A stretch of DNA of 64,000 bases. It comes from Myxococcales bacterium (GTDB lineage Bacteria; Myxococcota_A; Polyangia; Palsa-1104). Where the stretch lies: NCBI GenBank assembly GCA_028287105.1, contig JAQBQH010000154.1, positions 28,095 through 92,094 of the forward strand. The letters are read 5' to 3'. How positions within the stretch are numbered: the first letter of the stretch is position 1; each line of letters starts with the position of its first letter. The notes below the pieces were generated by a model. The model searched no databases and was not told the origin of the DNA. It saw only the letters and a program-made list of their open reading frames with translations. Positions 29,871 through 34,284 of the stretch are shown piece by piece. The position numbers were made by a program, and so were the translations under genes.

Positions 29871-30071
29871 GTAGGTAATTGTAAGCGAGTGTGGGTGAGA
29901 GTTCAAGTTTCGCGCTCTTCTTCGACGACGGGCGCCGGCGTCTCGGGGCAACCGACCCTGGGGAGAGCCCCACCCGGTTCGCGGGATCACGTGTCAACGG
30001 ATCGCGACAATCCGACCAGTTAGCTCGCTCGAAGGGCTGGTACGGCGGCTGCTTTGGGAGCAGTCAATCCA

Positions 30072-31280
30072 ATGCGTCGTGTCCGGGTTTCACGTCGACT
30101 GAGCGCTCTGGCCACCATCGTGGTCGTGGCCTCGATCGTCCCGGCCTCGCTGGCGCTGCGCTCCAAACCCCCCGCCGACTGGCGCGCCGCCATCCGCACG
30201 CTGCAGCCGCGCGCCGAGGCCGGTCGCCTCGTGCAGCCGCTCTCCGACGGCGGCCGCGTCGAGCTCACGCTCATCCCCGAGTTGCAACGCGCCGCCGAGC
30301 GGCTCCTCGCCGAAGCCGATCCCATCCAGGGCTCGGCCGTCATGGTCTCGATCCACGATGGCCGCGTGCTGGCGCTGGCCGGCCGCAACCGCGCCACCGC
30401 CGGCACCAACGATCCCTCGCTCGCCACCACCGCGTGGGCGCCCGCCGCGTCGGTGTTCAAGCTCGTCACCACCGCGGCGCTGCTCGACGCCGGCCTCCAC
30501 GCCGACACGCGCGTCTGCTACCACGGCGGGGTCCACAGCGTCGAAGCCGACAACCTCGAAGATCATCCCGCCGCCGACGGCCGCTGCAAGTCGCTCGGCT
30601 ACGGCCTCGCAAAATCGCAGAACGCGATCATCGCGCGGCTCGCCCACGATTATCTGGACCCGGCGGCGCTCGAGCGCAGCGCCACCGCGTTCGGCTTCGG
30701 CACCGCTCCCGCGTTCGAGCTCCCGACGGCGGCGTCGACGCTGACCCTGCCGGCGGATGGGCTCGGCTTCGCGCGCACCGCCGCCGGATTCTGGAACTCC
30801 AAGCTCTCGGCGCTCCACGGTGCGATGGTCGCCGCGACGATCGCCCGCGGCGGCGAGAGCGTCGATCCGCGCCTCGTCGAGCGCGTCCTCGACGGCAACG
30901 GCCGCGTCATGCCGCTGCCCGCCGCCGCTGCCCCGCGCCGCGCGCTCGACGCCGACACGGCGCGCGAGCTGGGGCTCATGATGGTCGGCACCACCGAGTG
31001 GGGCTCGGCCACGCGCGCCTTCCGCGATCCTTCGACGCACCGCCGCCGCCTCGCCGGCGTGCGCGTCGCCGGCAAGACCGGCACGCTCACCGGCAAGGAT
31101 CCCGCGCTCGCCTACTCGTGGTTCGTCGGCTTCGCGCCGGCCGACAAGCCGGAGGTCGCATTCGCGGTGCTGCTCGGCCGCGCCGACGAGGCCGACATCC
31201 GCGCCGCCGAGGTCGCCCGCGCGCTGCTTGCGACCTGGCTCACTACCGAAAGCATTTCTCCGCTCGTCGCCGCTCGCTGA
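30072..31280 (+). CDS. Membrane-anchored penicillin-binding-protein transpeptidase / serine beta-lactamase fold protein
   Basis: N-terminal TM LSALATIVVVASIV. Active-site triad motifs SVFK (SxxK), SQN (SxN) and KTGT (KTG) occur at canonical spacing. Confidence 0.7.
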   Translation: MRRVRVSRRLSALATIVVVASIVPASLALRSKPPADWRAAIRTLQPRAEAGRLVQPLSDGGRVELTLIPELQRAAERLLAEADPIQGSAVMVSIHDGRVLALAGRNRATAGTNDPSLATTAWAPAASVFKLVTTAALLDAGLHADTRVCYHGGVHSVEADNLEDHPAADGRCKSLGYGLAKSQNAIIARLAHDYLDPAALERSATAFGFGTAPAFELPTAASTLTLPADGLGFARTAAGFWNSKLSALHGAMVAATIARGGESVDPRLVERVLDGNGRVMPLPAAAAPRRALDADTARELGLMMVGTTEWGSATRAFRDPSTHRRRLAGVRVAGKTGTLTGKDPALAYSWFVGFAPADKPEVAFAVLLGRADEADIRAAEVARALLATWLTTESISPLVAAR

Positions 31281-31300
31281 TCTGTTAGTGTCCGCGACCC

Positions 31301-32092
31301 ATGCGCTATACGATTGTTGCGTTTCTCGTCGCTGCCGGCTGCAGCGTGGCCAAGGTTCCCGTCGACGATGACGTCACCGCCGCGTTCACGGCCGACGTAA
31401 AGGCCGATCTGCCGACCAACACGAAGTTCCTCGGCGATCTCGGTCGCTCGCCGGCGCCGCAGTTCCCCGTGCTCTATACGAAGAAGCCGAAGTATCGGTC
31501 GGTCGCCTTCTGGGCCACGGCCGGCGACGTCTACGACATCTGGGTCACGTCGACGGACGGCGACGCCATCGTCTGGCTGATGGACTTCCAGGGCAACGTC
31601 ATCGCGTCGGACGACGACGCGTCGAGCGACACGACCGACGCGCACATCCACGCGACGCTCGGTCCGTCGAACGGCCACTACTTCATCTACTTTCGCGAGT
31701 ACGCGGGCCGGCGCGCGCACCTGAGCGTCACGGCGACGGGCGGCCATCCGGCCGACGCGACCGGCGAGGCCGAGCGCGCGTGGGACGCCGCCTCCACCGA
31801 CGACGCAACGCTCGCCGCCGACGCCGTCGCAGCGACCTCGCTGCCGGCCGTGGCCAAGGTGCGCTACGACAAGCTCGCCGCGAAGTTCGGCGGCGCGCAC
31901 TCGTGGAAGATGAAGAGCATCGACGGCCGCGCGAGCTACTTCGTCATCGGCGCCAGCGTCGAAGAGATCTTCTGGATCGACATCTACGACGCCGCCGGCG
32001 CGTTCGTCGTGCACGGCGCGAGTGGCGATGGCGGCTGGCAGATGACCTTCTGGGGCGCACCGCAGCCGTGGGATCCGAGCGGCTCCATCTAG
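31301..32092 (+). CDS. Lipoprotein, hypothetical
   Basis: Lipobox FLVAAGCS. Asp/Ser-rich acidic segments. No recognisable catalytic motif. Confidence 0.5.
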   Translation: MRYTIVAFLVAAGCSVAKVPVDDDVTAAFTADVKADLPTNTKFLGDLGRSPAPQFPVLYTKKPKYRSVAFWATAGDVYDIWVTSTDGDAIVWLMDFQGNVIASDDDASSDTTDAHIHATLGPSNGHYFIYFREYAGRRAHLSVTATGGHPADATGEAERAWDAASTDDATLAADAVAATSLPAVAKVRYDKLAAKFGGAHSWKMKSIDGRASYFVIGASVEEIFWIDIYDAAGAFVVHGASGDGGWQMTFWGAPQPWDPSGSI

Positions 32093-32178
32093 ATCGCAAT
32101 CCCCGCCTCGACTTCGCCGCCTCGCCCATAAGATAGAACCCGCGCGCGACCGAAGTGTCGATATTGTTGCGTGAAAAA

Positions 32179-32207
32179 CCAATTCAACAGCGATTATTTC
32201 GAATTGG
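32179..32207. promoter_or_regulatory. Perfect 7-bp inverted repeat CCAATTC-N15-GAATTGG in an AT-rich island upstream of the ilv-leu operon
   Basis: The local AT-rich stretch (32150-32270) stands out against GC-rich surroundings. The palindrome is a candidate regulator-binding site. Confidence 0.4.
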
Positions 32208-32237
32208 TAAATTCGTGATCCTTTCGCACGGCCCAGC

Positions 32238-32265
32238 TTGACGCCATGCGTAAACTGGCTAAGAT
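32238..32265 (+). promoter_or_regulatory. Candidate sigma70-type promoter (TTGACG, 16-nt spacer, TAAGAT)
   Basis: Hexamers at 32238-32243 and 32260-32265. This is tentative because there are several alternative hexamers in the AT-rich island. Confidence 0.3.
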
Positions 32266-32407
32266 TAGCCCCGTGAGCGAGGCAGCCTTCAGCCGCAACT
32301 TCTTCGGGCTCCCCGTCGGGCAGTGCGCCGCGACGGGTTCGCTGCTTTCGATTATTGGGCTCGTACTTATTGGCGACATCGTCGCCAGGTGCGGGCCGCC
32401 GACTTAA
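32246..32407 (+). CDS. Putative ilv-leu leader peptide (53 aa from ATG 32246; in-frame alternative GTG 32273). It ends with a Leu/Ile/Val-rich run.
   Basis: ...TGSLLSIIGLVLIGDIVARCGPPT*. The tail contains 11 branched-chain codons out of 16. The stop is 24 nt before the hairpin-plus-T-run. It is absent from the ORF track because it is shorter than about 60 aa. Confidence 0.45.
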   Translation: MRKLAKISPVSEAAFSRNFFGLPVGQCAATGSLLSIIGLVLIGDIVARCGPPT

Positions 32408-32430
32408 CCAAGTCCTCGGAAACCTGATTC

Positions 32431-32470
32431 AGCCCCCGCCCTGGTGATACGGAGCGGGGGCTTTTTTTTG
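32431..32470 (+). terminator. Intrinsic terminator / attenuator hairpin (gcccccgc...gcgggggc plus T8)
   Basis: 8-bp GC stem with a 14-nt loop followed by tttttttt. It lies between the leader ORF and the ilvD start. Confidence 0.6.
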
Positions 32471-32491
32471 GGCTCGATTCGGAGGTTCGGT

Positions 32492-34138
32492 TTGCGTAGC
32501 GATGTGTTGAAGAAGGGACTCTCGAGAGCGCCGGCGCGCGCGATGTTGCGCGCCACCGGCCTCGACGACGCCGATCTCGAGAAGCCGCTGGTGGCGGTGG
32601 TCTCGACGTGGACCGACGTCATGCCGTGCAACCTGCACCTGCGCGAGCTGCAGGCGGCGGTGTGCGAAGGCGTGCGCGCGGCGGGTGCCACGCCGGTGCA
32701 GTTCAACACCATCGCGGTGTCGGACGGCATCGCCATGGGCACCGACGGCATGGAGGCGTCGCTGGTCTCGCGCGAGGTCATCGCCGATTCGATGGAGCTG
32801 GTCGCGCTCGGCCACATGGTCGACGGCATCGTCGGGCTGACCGGGTGCGACAAGACCATCCCCGCCGCCGCGATGGCGATGGCGCGCCTCGATCTGCCAT
32901 CGGTGCTGCTCTACGGCGGACCGATCCAGCCCGGCCGCTGGCAGGGGCGGGACGTCACCATCCAGGACGTCTTCGAGGCCGTCGGAGCGTGCGCGGCGGG
33001 CAAGCTCGACGAGAAGGAGCTCTGTGAGCTCGAGCGCAGCGCCTGTCCGGGCGCCGGCGCGTGCGGCGGTCAGTTCACCGCCAACACGATGGCGCTGGCG
33101 ATGACGATGATGGGCCTGTCGCCGTTCGGCGCCAACGAAGTCCCCGCCACCGCCGAGGACAAGCGCGCGCAGGCGCGCCGCTGCGGCGAGCTGGTCGTCG
33201 GGCTCGTCCAGCGCCAGGAAGGGGCGCGCAAGTTCATCACGCGCGCCTCCTTGACCAACGCCGTTGCCGCCGCCGCCGCCAGCGCCGGATCGACGAACGC
33301 GGTCCTGCATCTCTTGGCCATCGCGGCCGAGGCCGAGGTCGAGCTGTCGCTCGAGGACATCGACGCCGCGGCCGCGCGCACGCCGGTCATCGCCGATCTG
33401 AAGCCGGGCGGCCGGTACACCGCGGTCGATCTGTGGCGCACCGGCGGCGCGGCCACGATGACGCGCACGCTCCTCGAGGGCGGCTTCGTCAGCGACGTCC
33501 CGACGGTGACCGGGCGCAGCCTCGCCGCCGAGGCCGCCGAAGCGCCGCGCGGTGTGTTGTCGCCCGAGGTGGTGCGCCCGCTCGACCGCGCGCTCAAGCC
33601 GCGCGGCGGCTTCGCCATCTTGCGCGGCTCGTTGTCGCCCGACGGCTGCGTCGTCAAGCTCGCCGGTGCCGGCCGGCAGAGCTTCGAGGGTCCGGCGCGG
33701 GTCTTCGATCGCGAAGAGGCTGCCTTCGCCGCGGTGCAGGCGGGCACGATCCAGAAGGGCGACGTCATGGTCATCCGCGGCGAAGGTCCCGTCGGTGGGC
33801 CCGGCATGCGCGAGATGCTGGGCGTGACGGCGGCGCTGGTCGGCCGCGGCCTCGGCGACGACGTGGCGCTGGTGACCGACGGTCGCTTCTCGGGCGCCAC
33901 GCACGGGCTCATGGTCGGTCACATCTCGCCCGAGGCGGCGCTCGGCGGACCGATCGCGCGCATCAAGGACGGCGACCGCGTGCGCATCGATGTCGAATCG
34001 CGACGGCTCGACGTCGACGCCGATCTGTCGGCGCGCCGCGACGCCTATCACGGCCGGGCCCGCCCGCGCGGGGTGCTCGGCAAGTACGCAGCAACGGTCT
34101 CTTCGGCGTCACTAGGCGCCGTTACCACCCGGAGGTGA
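32492..34138 (+). CDS. ilvD: Dihydroxy-acid dehydratase
   Basis: GGAGG-N6-TTG start gives [23 protein letters not shown], which aligns with the IlvD N-terminus. CNLHL / TGCDKT (Cys ligand region) motifs. Confidence 0.9.
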
Positions 34139-34140
34139 GC

Positions 34141-34284
34141 CATGAGCGATGAAGACGACAAGCAGGGTCGCGACCACGAAGACACCGCACCGTTTGCCCG
34201 CGAAGAGGAGCTCAGGCGGGAGCAGGAGCACGAGCCCCTGAGCGGCTGTGACGTCGAGCATTGCCAACGGATGCACGAGTAAAG
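34141..34284 (+). CDS. Small acidic ORF (47 aa) with strong RBS between ilvD and ilvB
   Basis: GGAGG 5 nt upstream of the ATG. MSDEDDKQGRDHEDTAPFAREEELRREQEHEPLSGCDVEHCQRMHE. The C-terminus is C-x3-H-C-x3-H. GC3 is lower than in neighbouring genes. Confidence 0.35.

What the first reader, a model, noticed from the sequence alone, without database searches (positions are those of the whole stretch)
32150..32492. Probable leader-peptide transcription attenuator in front of the ilv-leu supraoperon
An AT-rich island contains a short ORF (ATG 32246 or in-frame GTG 32273, stop 32405-32407). Its last third is LLSIIGLVLIGDIVA, with 11 Leu/Ile/Val codons out of 16. A GC-rich hairpin (gcccccgc / gcgggggc) followed by T8 lies 24 nt downstream, and ilvD starts at 32492. 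The ggcgacatcgtcgcc segment inside the regulatory codons is itself a hairpin (ggcgac-atc-gtcgcc), as expected for alternative antiterminator pairing. This is the classical architecture of branched-chain amino-acid attenuation in enterobacteria, and here it sits in a very GC-rich myxobacterial-type genome.
Basis: seen in the sequence. Interest (0 to 1): 0.6.

Follow-up and report, generated by a model that had tools for sequence, protein, structure and literature searches.

The report
Leaderless Leu/Ile/Val attenuator before ilvD
This is very probably a classical leader-peptide transcription attenuator that lets the bacterium switch on its branched-chain amino-acid operon when Leu, Ile or Val run short; the mechanism is ordinary, but I found no description of it in myxobacteria, and here the peptide is probably translated from the very first base of the transcript.

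Summary
The conserved start is GTG 32273, not ATG 32246, which lies inside the promoter spacer. The Leu/Ile/Val count is 10 of 15, not 11 of 16.

A sigma-70-like promoter (-35 at 32238, -10 at 32260) puts the transcription start on the GTG, so the 44-codon ORF (32273-32407) is probably leaderless. Its Leu/Ile/Val run uses codons that are rare in this genome. The only run of 7 or more T in the 64-kb window ends a -24.9 kcal/mol hairpin 22 nt before ilvD (TTG 32492). ilvD is followed by ilvB, ilvN, ilvC, leuA, leuC, leuD and a second leuA-like (HMGL-family) gene.

Thirteen related loci from Polyangia and Haliangiales genomes and from metagenomes carry the same element, always directly before ilvD, behind at least four different upstream sequences. 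The frame stays open in all 11 scored. The stop codon sits 8 nt after segment 2 in 10 of 11. Both the terminator state and the antiterminator state show compensatory changes.

Folding with a simulated ribosome makes the antiterminator form only when the A site is on the Leu/Ile/Val codons.

Verdict: supported; a new member of a known kind, not in Rfam. No experimental evidence exists yet.

The parts
32194..32215 (+). Conserved AT-rich box TTATTTCGAATTGGTAAATTCG, about 22-45 nt upstream of the -35. Possibly a regulator or UP-like site; function unknown.
   Evidence: Recognisable in window, L001, L116, L003, L035, L002, L081 and L148, although the sequence upstream of the element differs among loci. 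Its function is inferred only.
32238..32265 (+). Sigma-70-type promoter: -35 TTGACG 32238-32243, 16-nt spacer, -10 TAAGAT 32260-32265.
   Evidence: It is the only promoter-like hit in 31500-33000. The -35 is TTGACG in 10 of 11 relatives and TTGACA in one. The -10 is TAAGAT, TATGAT, TATGCT, TAAAGT or TATTGT in 9 of 11; L192 and L004 have no clear -10.
32273..32407 (+). Leader-peptide ORF of 44 codons: GTG start at the predicted +1 (leaderless), stop TAA 32405-32407. Peptide VSEAAFSRNFFGLPVGQCAATGSLLSIIGLVLIGDIVARCGPPT.
   Evidence: A start codon lies 6-10 nt after the -10 in the 9 members where a -10 is recognisable, with no SD before it. The frame is open in 11 of 11, while the other two frames are interrupted in 10 and 8 of 11. 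The stop lies 8 nt after segment 2 in 10 of 11 and uses TAA, TGA or TAG. 31 protein clusters exist, all named 'hypothetical' and without Pfam domains.
32312..32337 (+). Upstream hairpin P0 inside the ORF (CCCGUCG ... CGACGGG). Candidate pause or timing hairpin.
   Evidence: Present in the minimum-energy folds of window, L001, L002, L003, L035 and L116. The 5' arm is conserved, while the loop varies from about 4 to 12 nt and the 3' arm shifts with it. The pausing role is inferred.
32342..32386 (+). Regulatory codon run CTG CTT TCG ATT ATT GGG CTC GTA CTT ATT GGC GAC ATC GTC GCC (LLSIIGLVLIGDIVA); 10 of 15 codons are Leu, Ile or Val, and 6 of those are rare codons.
   Evidence: In this window's genes ATT is 6.2% of Ile codons, CTT 2.0% of Leu codons and GTA 2.3% of Val codons. 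The 24-nt core ATTATTGGGCTCGTACTTATTGGC is identical in 6 relatives whose ilvD third codon positions are only 64-74% identical.
32358..32397 (+). Anti-antiterminator. Segment 1 GGCUCGUACU (32358-32367) pairs with segment 2 GGUGCGGGCC (32388-32397), capped by the inner hairpin UGGCGAC-AUC-GUCGCCA (32371-32387).
   Evidence: and RNAalifold. The 1:2 stem is 99% paired. The inner hairpin has 4 pairs with changes on both sides, for example GGCGAC/GUCGCC against GGCCUC/GAGGCC.
32382..32447 (+). Antiterminator. UCGCCAGG-U-GCGGG (32382-32395) pairs with CCCGCCCUGGUGA (32435-32447), which is the terminator's 5' arm and loop.
   Evidence: Duplex energy -26.5 kcal/mol. The stretch 32381-32449 folds into it at -32.1 kcal/mol, z = -4.8. 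It is 94% paired across 11 sequences, and one pair is G-C in 6 and A-U in 5 with no mismatch.
32431..32469 (+). Intrinsic terminator: stem 32431-32462 (9 + 3 bp), then T8 at 32462-32469.
   Evidence: Energy -24.9 kcal/mol, z = -4.25. It holds the only run of 7 or more T in the window. It is conserved in all relatives.
32481..34138 (+). SD GGAGG (32481-32485) and ilvD (TTG 32492 to 34138), the first gene of the ilvD-ilvBN-ilvC-leuA-leuCD operon.
   Evidence: Pfam ILVD_EDD_N and ILV_EDD_C at 5.5e-113 and 6.9e-68. Only 11 nt separate the T-run from the SD, so there is no room for a separate ilvD promoter.

Best explanation
This is a ribosome-mediated (leader-peptide) transcription attenuator that controls the ilvD-ilvBN-ilvC-leuA-leuCD operon in response to charged Leu, Ile and Val tRNAs.

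How it most likely works:
1. Transcription starts at about 32273, from the promoter at 32238-32265. The first three bases, GUG, are the start codon, so a ribosome loads on the 5' end without a Shine-Dalgarno sequence.
2. When Leu, Ile and Val are plentiful, the ribosome runs through the codon run and reaches the stop at 32405. There it covers segment 2 (32388-32397). After release, segment 1 re-pairs with segment 2. In both cases the 5' arm of the terminator stays free. The terminator (32431-32462 plus T8) forms and RNA polymerase stops 22 nt before ilvD, leaving a transcript of about 197 nt.
3. When any of the three amino acids is scarce, the ribosome stalls on the run ATT ATT GGG CTC GTA CTT ATT, which is built largely from codons that are rare in this genome. 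The stalled ribosome covers segment 1, so segment 2 is free. Segment 2, together with the 3' arm of the inner hairpin, pairs with CCCGCCCUGGUGA as that sequence emerges. This happens before the terminator's 3' arm is made, and transcription reads through into ilvD.

Shown here: the sequence elements, their conservation and covariation, and the computed alternative folds.
Inferred: the transcription start, translation of the ORF, the stalling, and the kinetic competition between the two folds.
For: Anatomy.

The T8 is the only run of 7 or more T in 64 kb.

The same element sits directly before ilvD in L001, L002, L003, L004, L035, L081/L086, L114/L133, L116, L148, L192, L201 and L202/L203. The sequence upstream of it differs among loci.

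Evidence that the ORF is read:
- The frame is open in 11 of 11, while the other frames are interrupted in 10 and 8 of 11.
- The stop lies exactly 8 nt after segment 2 in 10 of 11, although it is TAA, TGA or TAG.
- Length differences in the variable N-terminal part keep the frame.

A run rich in Leu, Ile and Val is present in every member, with 7-10 of the best 12 residues.

Rare codons are held fixed even at synonymous sites, where ilvD itself has diverged.

Structure: the terminator-state pairs are 96% paired and 5 of them have changes on both sides. The antiterminator is 94% paired, with one pair switching cleanly between G-C and A-U. RNAalifold recovers the 1:2 stem and the terminator on its own.

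Ribosome-mask folding on RNA cut before the terminator's 3' arm: the 5' arm pairs upstream with P = 0.73-0.87 when the A site is on S-I-I-G-L-V-L-I-G-D. Without a ribosome P is 0.04-0.47 in 7 of 11 members (0.25 in the window), and 0.3-0.5 on later codons. One search shows the three states directly.

Precedent for leader peptides that start at the transcription start: C. glutamicum ilvBNC (PMC11857589, citing Morbach 2000) and D. deserti (PMC4007540).
Against: - There is no experimental evidence: no mapped transcription start, no short transcript, no ribosome occupancy.
- At equilibrium the full-length leader keeps the terminator at almost every simulated ribosome position. In the window, P(terminator) never falls below 0.84. 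The switch therefore has to be kinetic.
- In L002 and L192 the antiterminator already dominates in the truncated RNA without a ribosome; in L081 and L004 it is also above 0.5.
- A 5'-terminal GUG is a poor initiator in E. coli (my own knowledge); whether it works well in Myxococcota is not known.
- Segments 1 and 2 are almost invariant, so the 1:2 stem rests on conservation rather than covariation.
- Open frames are common by chance in DNA of 70% GC.
Confidence: 0.85

Rival explanations
1. The region is an independent small transcript (an sRNA or a small-protein gene) with its own promoter and terminator. It merely lies in front of ilvD, and ilvD is expressed by unregulated leak-through or from another promoter.
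For: The unit has a complete promoter and terminator and would give an RNA of about 197 nt. Rfam's best sub-threshold matches are terminator-bearing sRNAs: NsiR1 at 28.5 bits against a gathering score of 39.
Against: Only 11 nt separate the T-run from the ilvD SD, so ilvD can only be transcribed through this terminator. The unit is tied to ilvD in all 13 related loci although the sequence upstream of it differs. The Rfam matches cover only the terminator hairpin. An antiterminator that overlaps the terminator and co-varies with it has no role in a plain sRNA.
Confidence: 0.04
2. The ORF encodes a functional small hydrophobic peptide, for example a membrane micropeptide. Its conservation would then reflect peptide function rather than attenuation, or peptide function in addition to attenuation.
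For: The C-terminal 16 residues IIGLVLIGDIVARCGP are invariant in 31 protein clusters. A trans-acting role of an attenuator leader peptide has been reported (peTrpL; PMC7298713, abstract seen).
Against: Conservation goes down to synonymous third positions, including AT-ending rare codons, where ilvD has diverged. The conserved residues coincide exactly with segment 1, the inner hairpin and segment 2. In the hairpin the amino acids change (GDIVA to GLIEA or GLLEA) while base pairing is kept. The N-terminal two thirds are variable. The hydrophobic stretch is too short and is interrupted by Asp or Glu. No Pfam family matches.
Confidence: 0.07
3. The terminator/antiterminator switch is set by a trans factor that binds the leader: a protein, a tRNA as in T-box elements, or a small molecule as in riboswitches. 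The ORF would be incidental.
For: The core is strongly conserved at the nucleotide level. An AT-rich box is conserved upstream of the promoter. T-box control of leu genes occurs in some Deltaproteobacteria (my own knowledge).
Against: No T-box, riboswitch or other Rfam family matches, even at E up to 10. The structure is a plain set of hairpins with no conserved multi-stem junction or bulge to form a pocket. The fixed stop-codon position, the frame conservation and the Leu/Ile/Val codon content are not needed in this model.
Confidence: 0.04

Closest known systems
E. coli / Salmonella ilvGMEDA leader (ilvL) and ilvBN leader (ivbL): multivalent Leu/Ile/Val attenuators
   Same: A short ORF rich in Leu, Ile and Val codons, the four-segment logic (1:2, 2:3, 3:4), and an intrinsic terminator just before the first ilv gene. 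Mixed Leu, Val and Ile codons imply multivalent control. The enterobacterial details are from my own knowledge; the features here are.
   Different: There is no sequence or Rfam similarity. The start codon here is GUG at the predicted 5' end, with no SD. The Leu/Ile/Val codons are interleaved with Gly codons rather than forming long uninterrupted runs. The controlled operon joins ilvD, ilvBN, ilvC and the leu genes.
Corynebacterium glutamicum ilvBNC attenuator (leader peptide IlvL, MTIIRLVVVTARRLP)
   Same: Translation-dependent attenuation of an ilv operon in a GC-rich bacterium. The transcription start is one nucleotide from the leader peptide's start codon and there is no ribosome-binding site. 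It follows a three-hairpin model of anti-antiterminator, antiterminator and terminator (PMC11857589).
   Different: The phylum differs (Actinomycetota). That peptide has 15 residues against 44 here, that leader is 292 nt long, and the first gene is ilvB rather than ilvD. No sequence similarity was found: the Rfam search, which I expected to include the Corynebacterium ilvB-II motif (membership not verified), gave no hit.
Salmonella / E. coli leu operon leader (leuL)
   Same: It uses rare codons as the regulatory codons: CUA there, CUU, AUU and GUA here. The leu example is from my own knowledge (Carter, Bartkus and Calvo, 1986).
   Different: The leu leader senses only Leu through four consecutive codons and has an SD. 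Here single or double codons of three amino acids are used.
Leaderless leader peptides of Deinococcus deserti and the polycysteine uORFs of mycobacteria
   Same: A short regulatory ORF that begins with 5'-AUG or 5'-GUG at the transcription start, upstream of amino-acid genes (PMC4007540; bioRxiv 10.1101/834739, abstract).
   Different: The lineages and the amino acids sensed are different. I did not read how the mycobacterial elements act, so I make no claim about whether they use an intrinsic terminator switch.
ilvD leaders of Lysobacterales and Acidobacteriota found here (L006, L016, L027, L031, L058; L014-L022)
   Same: They sit directly before an ilvD that is 60-65% identical. In the Lysobacterales leaders the peptide is rich in Leu, Ile and Val, the codon core is GTA-CTT-(CTT)-ATT, segment 2 (GGTGCGGG) copies the terminator's 3' arm, and the start codon lies 7-9 nt after a -10-like hexamer; the Acidobacteriota peptides are Val/Ile-containing (best 4-6 of 10), built on GTA and ATC codons, and their start spacing was not resolved. 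Acidobacterial peptides end in ...GPPS*/GPPV*, like CGPPT* here.
   Different: They match the covariance model of the Polyangia family only weakly (E about 0.001-0.4, 15-25 bits, against 69-143 bits for family members). Common descent versus convergence is therefore not settled.

Membership tests
Ribosome-mediated (leader-peptide) transcription attenuators of amino-acid biosynthetic operons | A short ORF in the 5' leader of a biosynthetic operon | tested here: met
   A 44-codon ORF at 32273-32407, 85 nt before ilvD. It is conserved in 13 related loci.
Ribosome-mediated (leader-peptide) transcription attenuators of amino-acid biosynthetic operons | The ORF is enriched in codons for the end-product amino acids of the pathway | tested here: met
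   10 of 15 codons are Leu, Ile or Val in the window. Every one of the 11 members has 7-10 in its best 12 residues. The run is invariant in 31 protein clusters.
Ribosome-mediated (leader-peptide) transcription attenuators of amino-acid biosynthetic operons | An intrinsic terminator between the ORF and the first structural gene | tested here: met
   A -24.9 kcal/mol hairpin plus T8, ending 22 nt before the ilvD start. It is the only long T-run in the window and is conserved.
Ribosome-mediated (leader-peptide) transcription attenuators of amino-acid biosynthetic operons | An antiterminator pairing that excludes the terminator | tested here: met
   32382-32395 pairs with 32435-47 at -26.5 kcal/mol. 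Forms in RNA lacking segment 1 and the 3' arm. 94% paired, with a G-C/A-U switch. Computational only.
Ribosome-mediated (leader-peptide) transcription attenuators of amino-acid biosynthetic operons | An anti-antiterminator that overlaps the regulatory codons, so that ribosome position selects the fold | tested here: met
   Segment 1 is the codons GGG CTC GTA CT. Ribosome-mask folding switches the 5' arm from P 0.04-0.47 (7 of 11 members) to 0.73-0.87 only on the Leu/Ile/Val run. Stem 99% paired. L002, L192, L081 and L004 depart from this.
Ribosome-mediated (leader-peptide) transcription attenuators of amino-acid biosynthetic operons | A stop codon placed so that a terminating ribosome masks segment 2 | tested here: met
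   The stop lies 8 nt after the end of segment 2 in 10 of 11 members and 11 nt after it in one. The codon identity varies among TAA, TGA and TAG.
Ribosome-mediated (leader-peptide) transcription attenuators of amino-acid biosynthetic operons | The ORF is translated, and read-through rises when the cognate amino acids are scarce | not testable with these tools
   This needs 5'-RACE or Term-seq, ribosome profiling and reporter fusions.
Rfam leader families and other Rfam cis-regulators (Leu_leader, T-box and the rest of release 15) | A match to the family's covariance model at or near its gathering score | tested here: not met
   No such family appears even at E up to 10 in 31900-32800. Nothing reaches a gathering score anywhere in the window.
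Leaderless mRNAs | The transcription start coincides with the start codon and there is no SD | tested here: inconclusive
   Prediction only. GTG lies 7 nt after the -10. A start codon lies 6-10 nt after the -10 in the 9 members with a recognisable -10. No purine-rich SD precedes it. The start is not mapped.

The most novel reading that the evidence does not exclude
The element may belong to a cross-phylum family that has not been recognised: leaderless, multivalent Leu/Ile/Val attenuators that travel with this type of ilvD through Myxococcota, Xanthomonadales/Lysobacterales and perhaps Acidobacteriota.

The family would be built around one rare-codon triad, GUA-CUU-AUU (Val-Leu-Ile). The 5'-terminal start codon would later be sequestered by pairing with the first regulatory codons (GAGGCAGC with GCUGCUU in the window; a different complementary pair in L002). 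That would allow only one pioneer ribosome per transcript to read out tRNA charging.
Probability: 0.3. Interest if true: 0.5.

Novelty: new member of a known kind. Interest (0 to 1): 0.35.

Why it matters
It gives a concrete and testable regulatory model for branched-chain amino-acid biosynthesis in Polyangia. These are GC-rich, secondary-metabolite-rich myxobacteria, many known only from metagenomes, and I found no published attenuator for them and no Rfam family for this element.

It adds a proteobacteria-like lineage to the short list of bacteria in which a leader peptide seems to be translated from a leaderless 5'-GUG.

It also shows regulatory codons kept as rare synonymous variants against a genome with about 91% GC at third codon positions.

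On the practical side:
- Gene callers annotate the ORF as a 'hypothetical protein' with inconsistent start codons.
- The covariance model built here could annotate the element across genomes.
- Branched-chain precursors feed myxobacterial polyketide and iso-fatty-acid pathways (my own knowledge), so deleting the terminator is an obvious engineering handle.

The mechanism itself is textbook, so the gain is in annotation and phylogenetic breadth, not in concept.

Tried and rejected
- Rfam at a permissive threshold over the region, and at gathering threshold over the whole window, gave only sub-threshold, terminator-shaped sRNA matches.
- The simple terminator scan found nothing, probably because this bulged two-part stem does not fit its stem/loop definition; this says nothing against the hairpin.
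- Equilibrium folding of the full leader with a masked ribosome barely displaces the terminator: the window minimum of P(terminator) is 0.84, and only L001, L004, L148 and L192 switch. I therefore do not use it as evidence and rely on the co-transcriptional (truncated) version.
- The one metagenome scan, with pattern GGGCTCGTACT-N(8-38)-GGTGCGGGC, returned 120 stretches. Only 7 (5 distinct) were true leaders; the rest were chance matches inside coding regions.
- My first automatic extraction of segments 2 and 3 for the duplex calculation picked the wrong sites in L003 and L114. Those two rows are disregarded.
- ATG 32246 as the start is rejected. It lies in the promoter spacer, and L081 and L148 have in-frame stops between it and the GTG.
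- The Pro-Pro before the stop as an essential arrest motif is rejected as a general feature. L002, L116, L148 and many protein clusters have PL, LP or LT there instead.
- The covariance model found only weak matches outside Polyangia and Haliangiales, so I do not claim homology with the Lysobacterales or Acidobacteriota leaders.
- Literature searches for an attenuator in Myxococcota or Xanthomonas found none. Vitreschak et al. 2004 (FEMS Microbiol Lett) did not turn up in any of my searches; I did not look it up directly, and I recall no delta-proteobacterial ilv attenuator in it.
Full report
**1. The observation**

- GC drops to 0.46-0.56 between 32100 and 32300, in a window that averages 0.695.
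- An ORF runs from ATG 32246 or GTG 32273 to TAA 32405-32407 and ends ...LLSIIGLVLIGDIVARCGPPT*.
- A hairpin, gcccccgc 32432-32439 with gcgggggc 32454-32461, is followed by T8 at 32462-32469.
- ilvD begins at TTG 32492 behind GGAGG 32481-32485.

Pfam confirms the downstream operon ilvD, ilvB, ilvN, ilvC, leuA, leuC, leuD and a second leuA-like (HMGL/LeuA_dimer) gene.

The T8 is the only run of 7 or more T or A in the whole 64 kb. The hairpin alone folds at -24.9 kcal/mol, z = -4.25. The 206-nt leader folds with z = -3.9.

Small corrections: the Leu/Ile/Val count is 10 of 15, not 11 of 16. The pattern-based terminator scan reported no site, probably because this bulged two-part stem does not fit its stem/loop definition.

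**2. Promoter and start codon**

The only sigma-70-like site in 31500-33000 is TTGACG (32238), a 16-nt spacer, then TAAGAT (ending at 32265). This puts +1 at about 32272-32273.

ATG 32246 therefore lies inside the promoter spacer, and GTG 32273 lies at the very 5' end of the transcript. No purine-rich SD precedes the GTG.

**3. Relatives**

A scan of one genome per species with the ilvD protein gave five loci that share the leader:
- L001 and L035, labelled Polyangia, with ilvD 83-84% identical.
- L003, 86% identical. It is labelled Terriglobales, which may be a binning error.
- L002, an 'uncultured delta proteobacterium', 73% identical.
- L004, Haliangiales, 67% identical.

A DNA-pattern scan of metagenomes added L081/L086, L114/L133, L116, L148 and L192. 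The other 113 of its 120 hits were chance matches. A search with the peptide found 31 protein clusters, all 'hypothetical' and without Pfam domains. Their contigs (L201-L203) show the order leader ORF, ilvD, ilvB, ilvN, ilvC.

In every case the element lies directly before ilvD. The sequence just upstream of it differs: a 263-aa protein with a weak, sub-threshold PPC-domain match here, a transpeptidase-domain gene in L201 (called gene), and unrelated sequence whose reading I made by eye in L001/L003 and in L004. The hairpin is therefore not the terminator of the upstream gene.

**4. Evidence that the ORF is read**

- In the 9 members with a recognisable -10, a start codon (GTG in eight, ATG in L114) lies 35-39 nt after the first base of the -35, which is 6-10 nt after the -10. 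L192 and L004 have no clear -10; L004 has its ATG further downstream behind a weak SD.
- L081 and L148 have in-frame stops upstream of that codon.
- The frame is open to the stop in 11 of 11. The other two frames are interrupted in 10 and 8 of 11.
- The N-terminal two thirds vary in sequence and length, but always in multiples of three.
- The stop lies exactly 8 nt after the end of segment 2 in 10 of 11, and 11 nt after it in L114, although it is TAA, TGA or TAG. A fixed position with changing identity is what selection on the site of translation termination would give.

**5. The regulatory codons**

The run is CTG CTT TCG ATT ATT GGG CTC GTA CTT ATT GGC GAC ATC GTC GCC.

In about 3,700 codons of this window's genes, ATT is 6.2% of Ile codons, CTT 2.0% of Leu codons and GTA 2.3% of Val codons, and third-position GC is about 0.91 in seven of the eight ORFs used (0.59 in 29891-31288). 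The leader uses ATT three times, CTT twice and GTA once.

The 24-nt core ATTATTGGGCTCGTACTTATTGGC is identical in six relatives. In those same relatives, ilvD third positions at identical amino acids are only 64-74% identical. So the constraint acts on the nucleotides or on codon choice, not only on the peptide.

Rare regulatory codons are known from the Salmonella leu leader (my own knowledge).

**6. RNA structures**

The minimum-energy fold of the leader and an independent RNAalifold consensus give the same picture:
- A stem between segment 1 (GGCUCGUACU, 32358-32367) and segment 2 (GGUGCGGGCC, 32388-32397).
- This stem is capped by the inner hairpin UGGCGAC-AUC-GUCGCCA (32371-32387).
- The terminator follows at 32431-32462.

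On the 11-sequence alignment A1, this structure is 96% paired, against 36-51% when the partners are slid by 1-3 columns. The inner hairpin has four pairs with changes on both sides, for example GGCGAC/GUCGCC against GGCCUC/GAGGCC or GGCCUU/GAGGCC. In those variants the peptide changes from GDIVA to GLIEA or GLLEA while the pairing is kept.

The alternative pairing joins UCGCCAGG-U-GCGGG (32382-32395) with CCCGCCCUGGUGA (32435-32447). That second strand consumes five pairs of the main terminator stem and all of its upper stem. The duplex energy is -26.5 kcal/mol. Across the family it is 94% paired, and one pair is G-C in six sequences and A-U in five, with no mismatch.

Segment 2 is in effect a copy of the terminator's 3' arm.

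A further hairpin, P0 (CCCGUCG ... CGACGGG, 32312-32337), is kept in most members. Its loop ranges from about 4 to 12 nt and its 3' arm moves with the loop. I take it to be a pause or timing hairpin; that is an inference.

**7. Does ribosome position choose the fold?**

With the full leader at equilibrium, the terminator wins almost everywhere. In the window P(terminator) is at least 0.84, and a switch appears only in L001, L004, L148 and L192. As in the trp attenuator, the decision therefore has to be kinetic.

I then cut the RNA just before the terminator's 3' arm and masked a footprint from 15 nt before to 12 nt after the first base of the A-site codon. The results were:
- The terminator's 5' arm pairs upstream with P = 0.73-0.87 only while the A site is on S-I-I-G-L-V-L-I-G-D.
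- Without a ribosome, P is 0.04-0.47 in 7 of 11 members (0.25 in the window).
- With the ribosome on later codons or on the stop, P is 0.3-0.5.
- L002 and L192 are exceptions: their antiterminator dominates (0.81, 0.87) even without a ribosome. L081 (0.58) and L004 (0.52) are also above 0.5.

One search shows the states directly:
- 32381-32449 (segment 1 absent, 3' arm not yet made) folds into the antiterminator at -32.1 kcal/mol, z = -4.8.
- 32355-32449 (segment 1 present) forms the 1:2 stem and leaves the 5' arm free.
- 32381-32470 ends in the terminator.

**8. Mechanism**

The best explanation is a classical leader-peptide attenuator with four segments plus an upstream hairpin, started by a leaderless GUG.
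- When Leu, Ile and Val are plentiful, the ribosome reaches the stop and covers segment 2, or has already left so that 1:2 forms. The terminator then forms, giving an RNA of about 197 nt.
- When any of them is scarce, the ribosome stalls on the rare-codon run and covers segment 1. The 2:3 antiterminator forms first, and transcription reads through into ilvD, ilvBN, ilvC and the leu genes.
- Mixed Leu, Val and Ile codons imply multivalent control.

Shown here: the elements, their conservation, the covariation and the computed folds.
Inferred: the transcription start, translation, stalling and the kinetics.

Rivals (an independent sRNA, a functional micropeptide, a trans-factor switch) are weakened by four findings:
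- The gap between the T-run and the SD is only 11 nt.
- The element is tied to ilvD.
- Synonymous sites in the core are conserved.
- The stop position is fixed, and nothing in Rfam matches.

**9. Comparison with what is known**

The element works like the enterobacterial ilvGMEDA, ilvBN and leu leaders. It works most like the C. glutamicum ilvBNC attenuator, where the transcription start is one nucleotide from the leader peptide's start codon and no ribosome-binding site exists (PMC11857589). Leaderless leader peptides have also been predicted in D. deserti (PMC4007540).

It matches no Rfam family. My searches found no paper on an attenuator in Myxococcota.

Other ilvD loci show that leaders of this kind are widespread:
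- Lysobacterales: for example ...LVLVLLISRSQCGMAT* and ...IVVVVLLITSLTGAGST*. These share the GTA-CTT-ATT core and have a start codon 7-9 nt after a -10-like hexamer.
- Acidobacteriota: ...VYVTIGWGPPS*.
- A delta-proteobacterial MAG, L020: MYFRHIALITDTIIDPSPIIIPGVRA*.

The covariance model of the Polyangia family hits these only weakly, at 15-25 bits against 69-143 bits for family members. Homology across phyla is therefore open.

**10. Verdict**

The start codon is corrected to GTG 32273, and the role of the inner hairpin is refined.

The element is a new member of a known kind. It is useful for annotation and for understanding and engineering branched-chain amino-acid supply in Polyangia, but it is not conceptually surprising. 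Interest: 0.35.

Noticed in passing
window 34142-34282 (+): A conserved 46-residue acidic small ORF lies between ilvD (stop at 34138) and the real ilvB start (ATG at about 34305). Its SD, GGAGG, overlaps the end of ilvD. The peptide is MSDEDDKQGRDHEDTAPFAREEELRREQEHEPLSGCDVEHCQRMHE and ends in C-x3-HC-x3-H. It is also called as a gene in L201 and L202 (76-93% identical). No Pfam family matches.
   Followed up: partly
window 32125-32217: Conservation extends about 110 nt upstream of the -35, although the sequence beyond it differs among loci. It includes CCCATAAGATAGAAC, GATATTGTTGCGTGAAAAACC and the AT-rich box TTATTTCGAATTGGTAAATTCG (32194-32215), which contains the inverted repeat CCAATTC...GAATTGG. 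This could be a regulator-binding or UP-like region, or a second promoter.
   Followed up: partly
whole window: Apart from the attenuator's T8 there is no run of 7 or more T or A in 64 kb. No Rfam family reaches its gathering score. Canonical intrinsic terminators with long U-tracts appear to be very rare in this genome.
   Followed up: partly
L027 2377-2495 (-), L031 2414-2551 (-): The Lysobacterales loci carry a second attenuator on the opposite strand, about 500 nt upstream of ilvD. Its peptides are Leu-rich (...VLLGLLLIPPTLRDGAFST* and ...VSVLGLLLMPPTSREGAAAG*) and are followed by a terminator. In L031 it precedes a leuA-like gene that begins [23 protein letters not shown].
   Followed up: partly
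L014-L022 (about 2800-2945), L008 2522-2623: Acidobacteriota ilvD leaders encode peptides such as MTRPARPPVLSGVYVTIGWGPPS* and MTRRIHPVIVVAIIRSGPPV*, followed by a terminator. Their ending, Gly-Pro-Pro-x-stop, resembles CGPPT* of the window. In L008, about 400 nt containing tandem GTTTTT-type repeats separate the terminator from ilvD.
   Followed up: no
window 32273-32356: In the minimum-energy fold, the 5' end of the leader, including the GUG start (GUGAGCGAGGCAGC), pairs with GCUGCUUUCGAUUAU, which are the first regulatory codons. L002 has a different but still complementary pair (ACGCUGGC with GCCGGCGU). This stem could close the leaderless start after the first ribosome has loaded.
   Followed up: no
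L003 (CAZLIE010000116.1): This contig is labelled 'uncultured Terriglobales'. Yet it carries the ilvD closest to the window (86% identical) and a near-identical Polyangia-type leader. It has probably been placed in the wrong genome bin.
   Followed up: no
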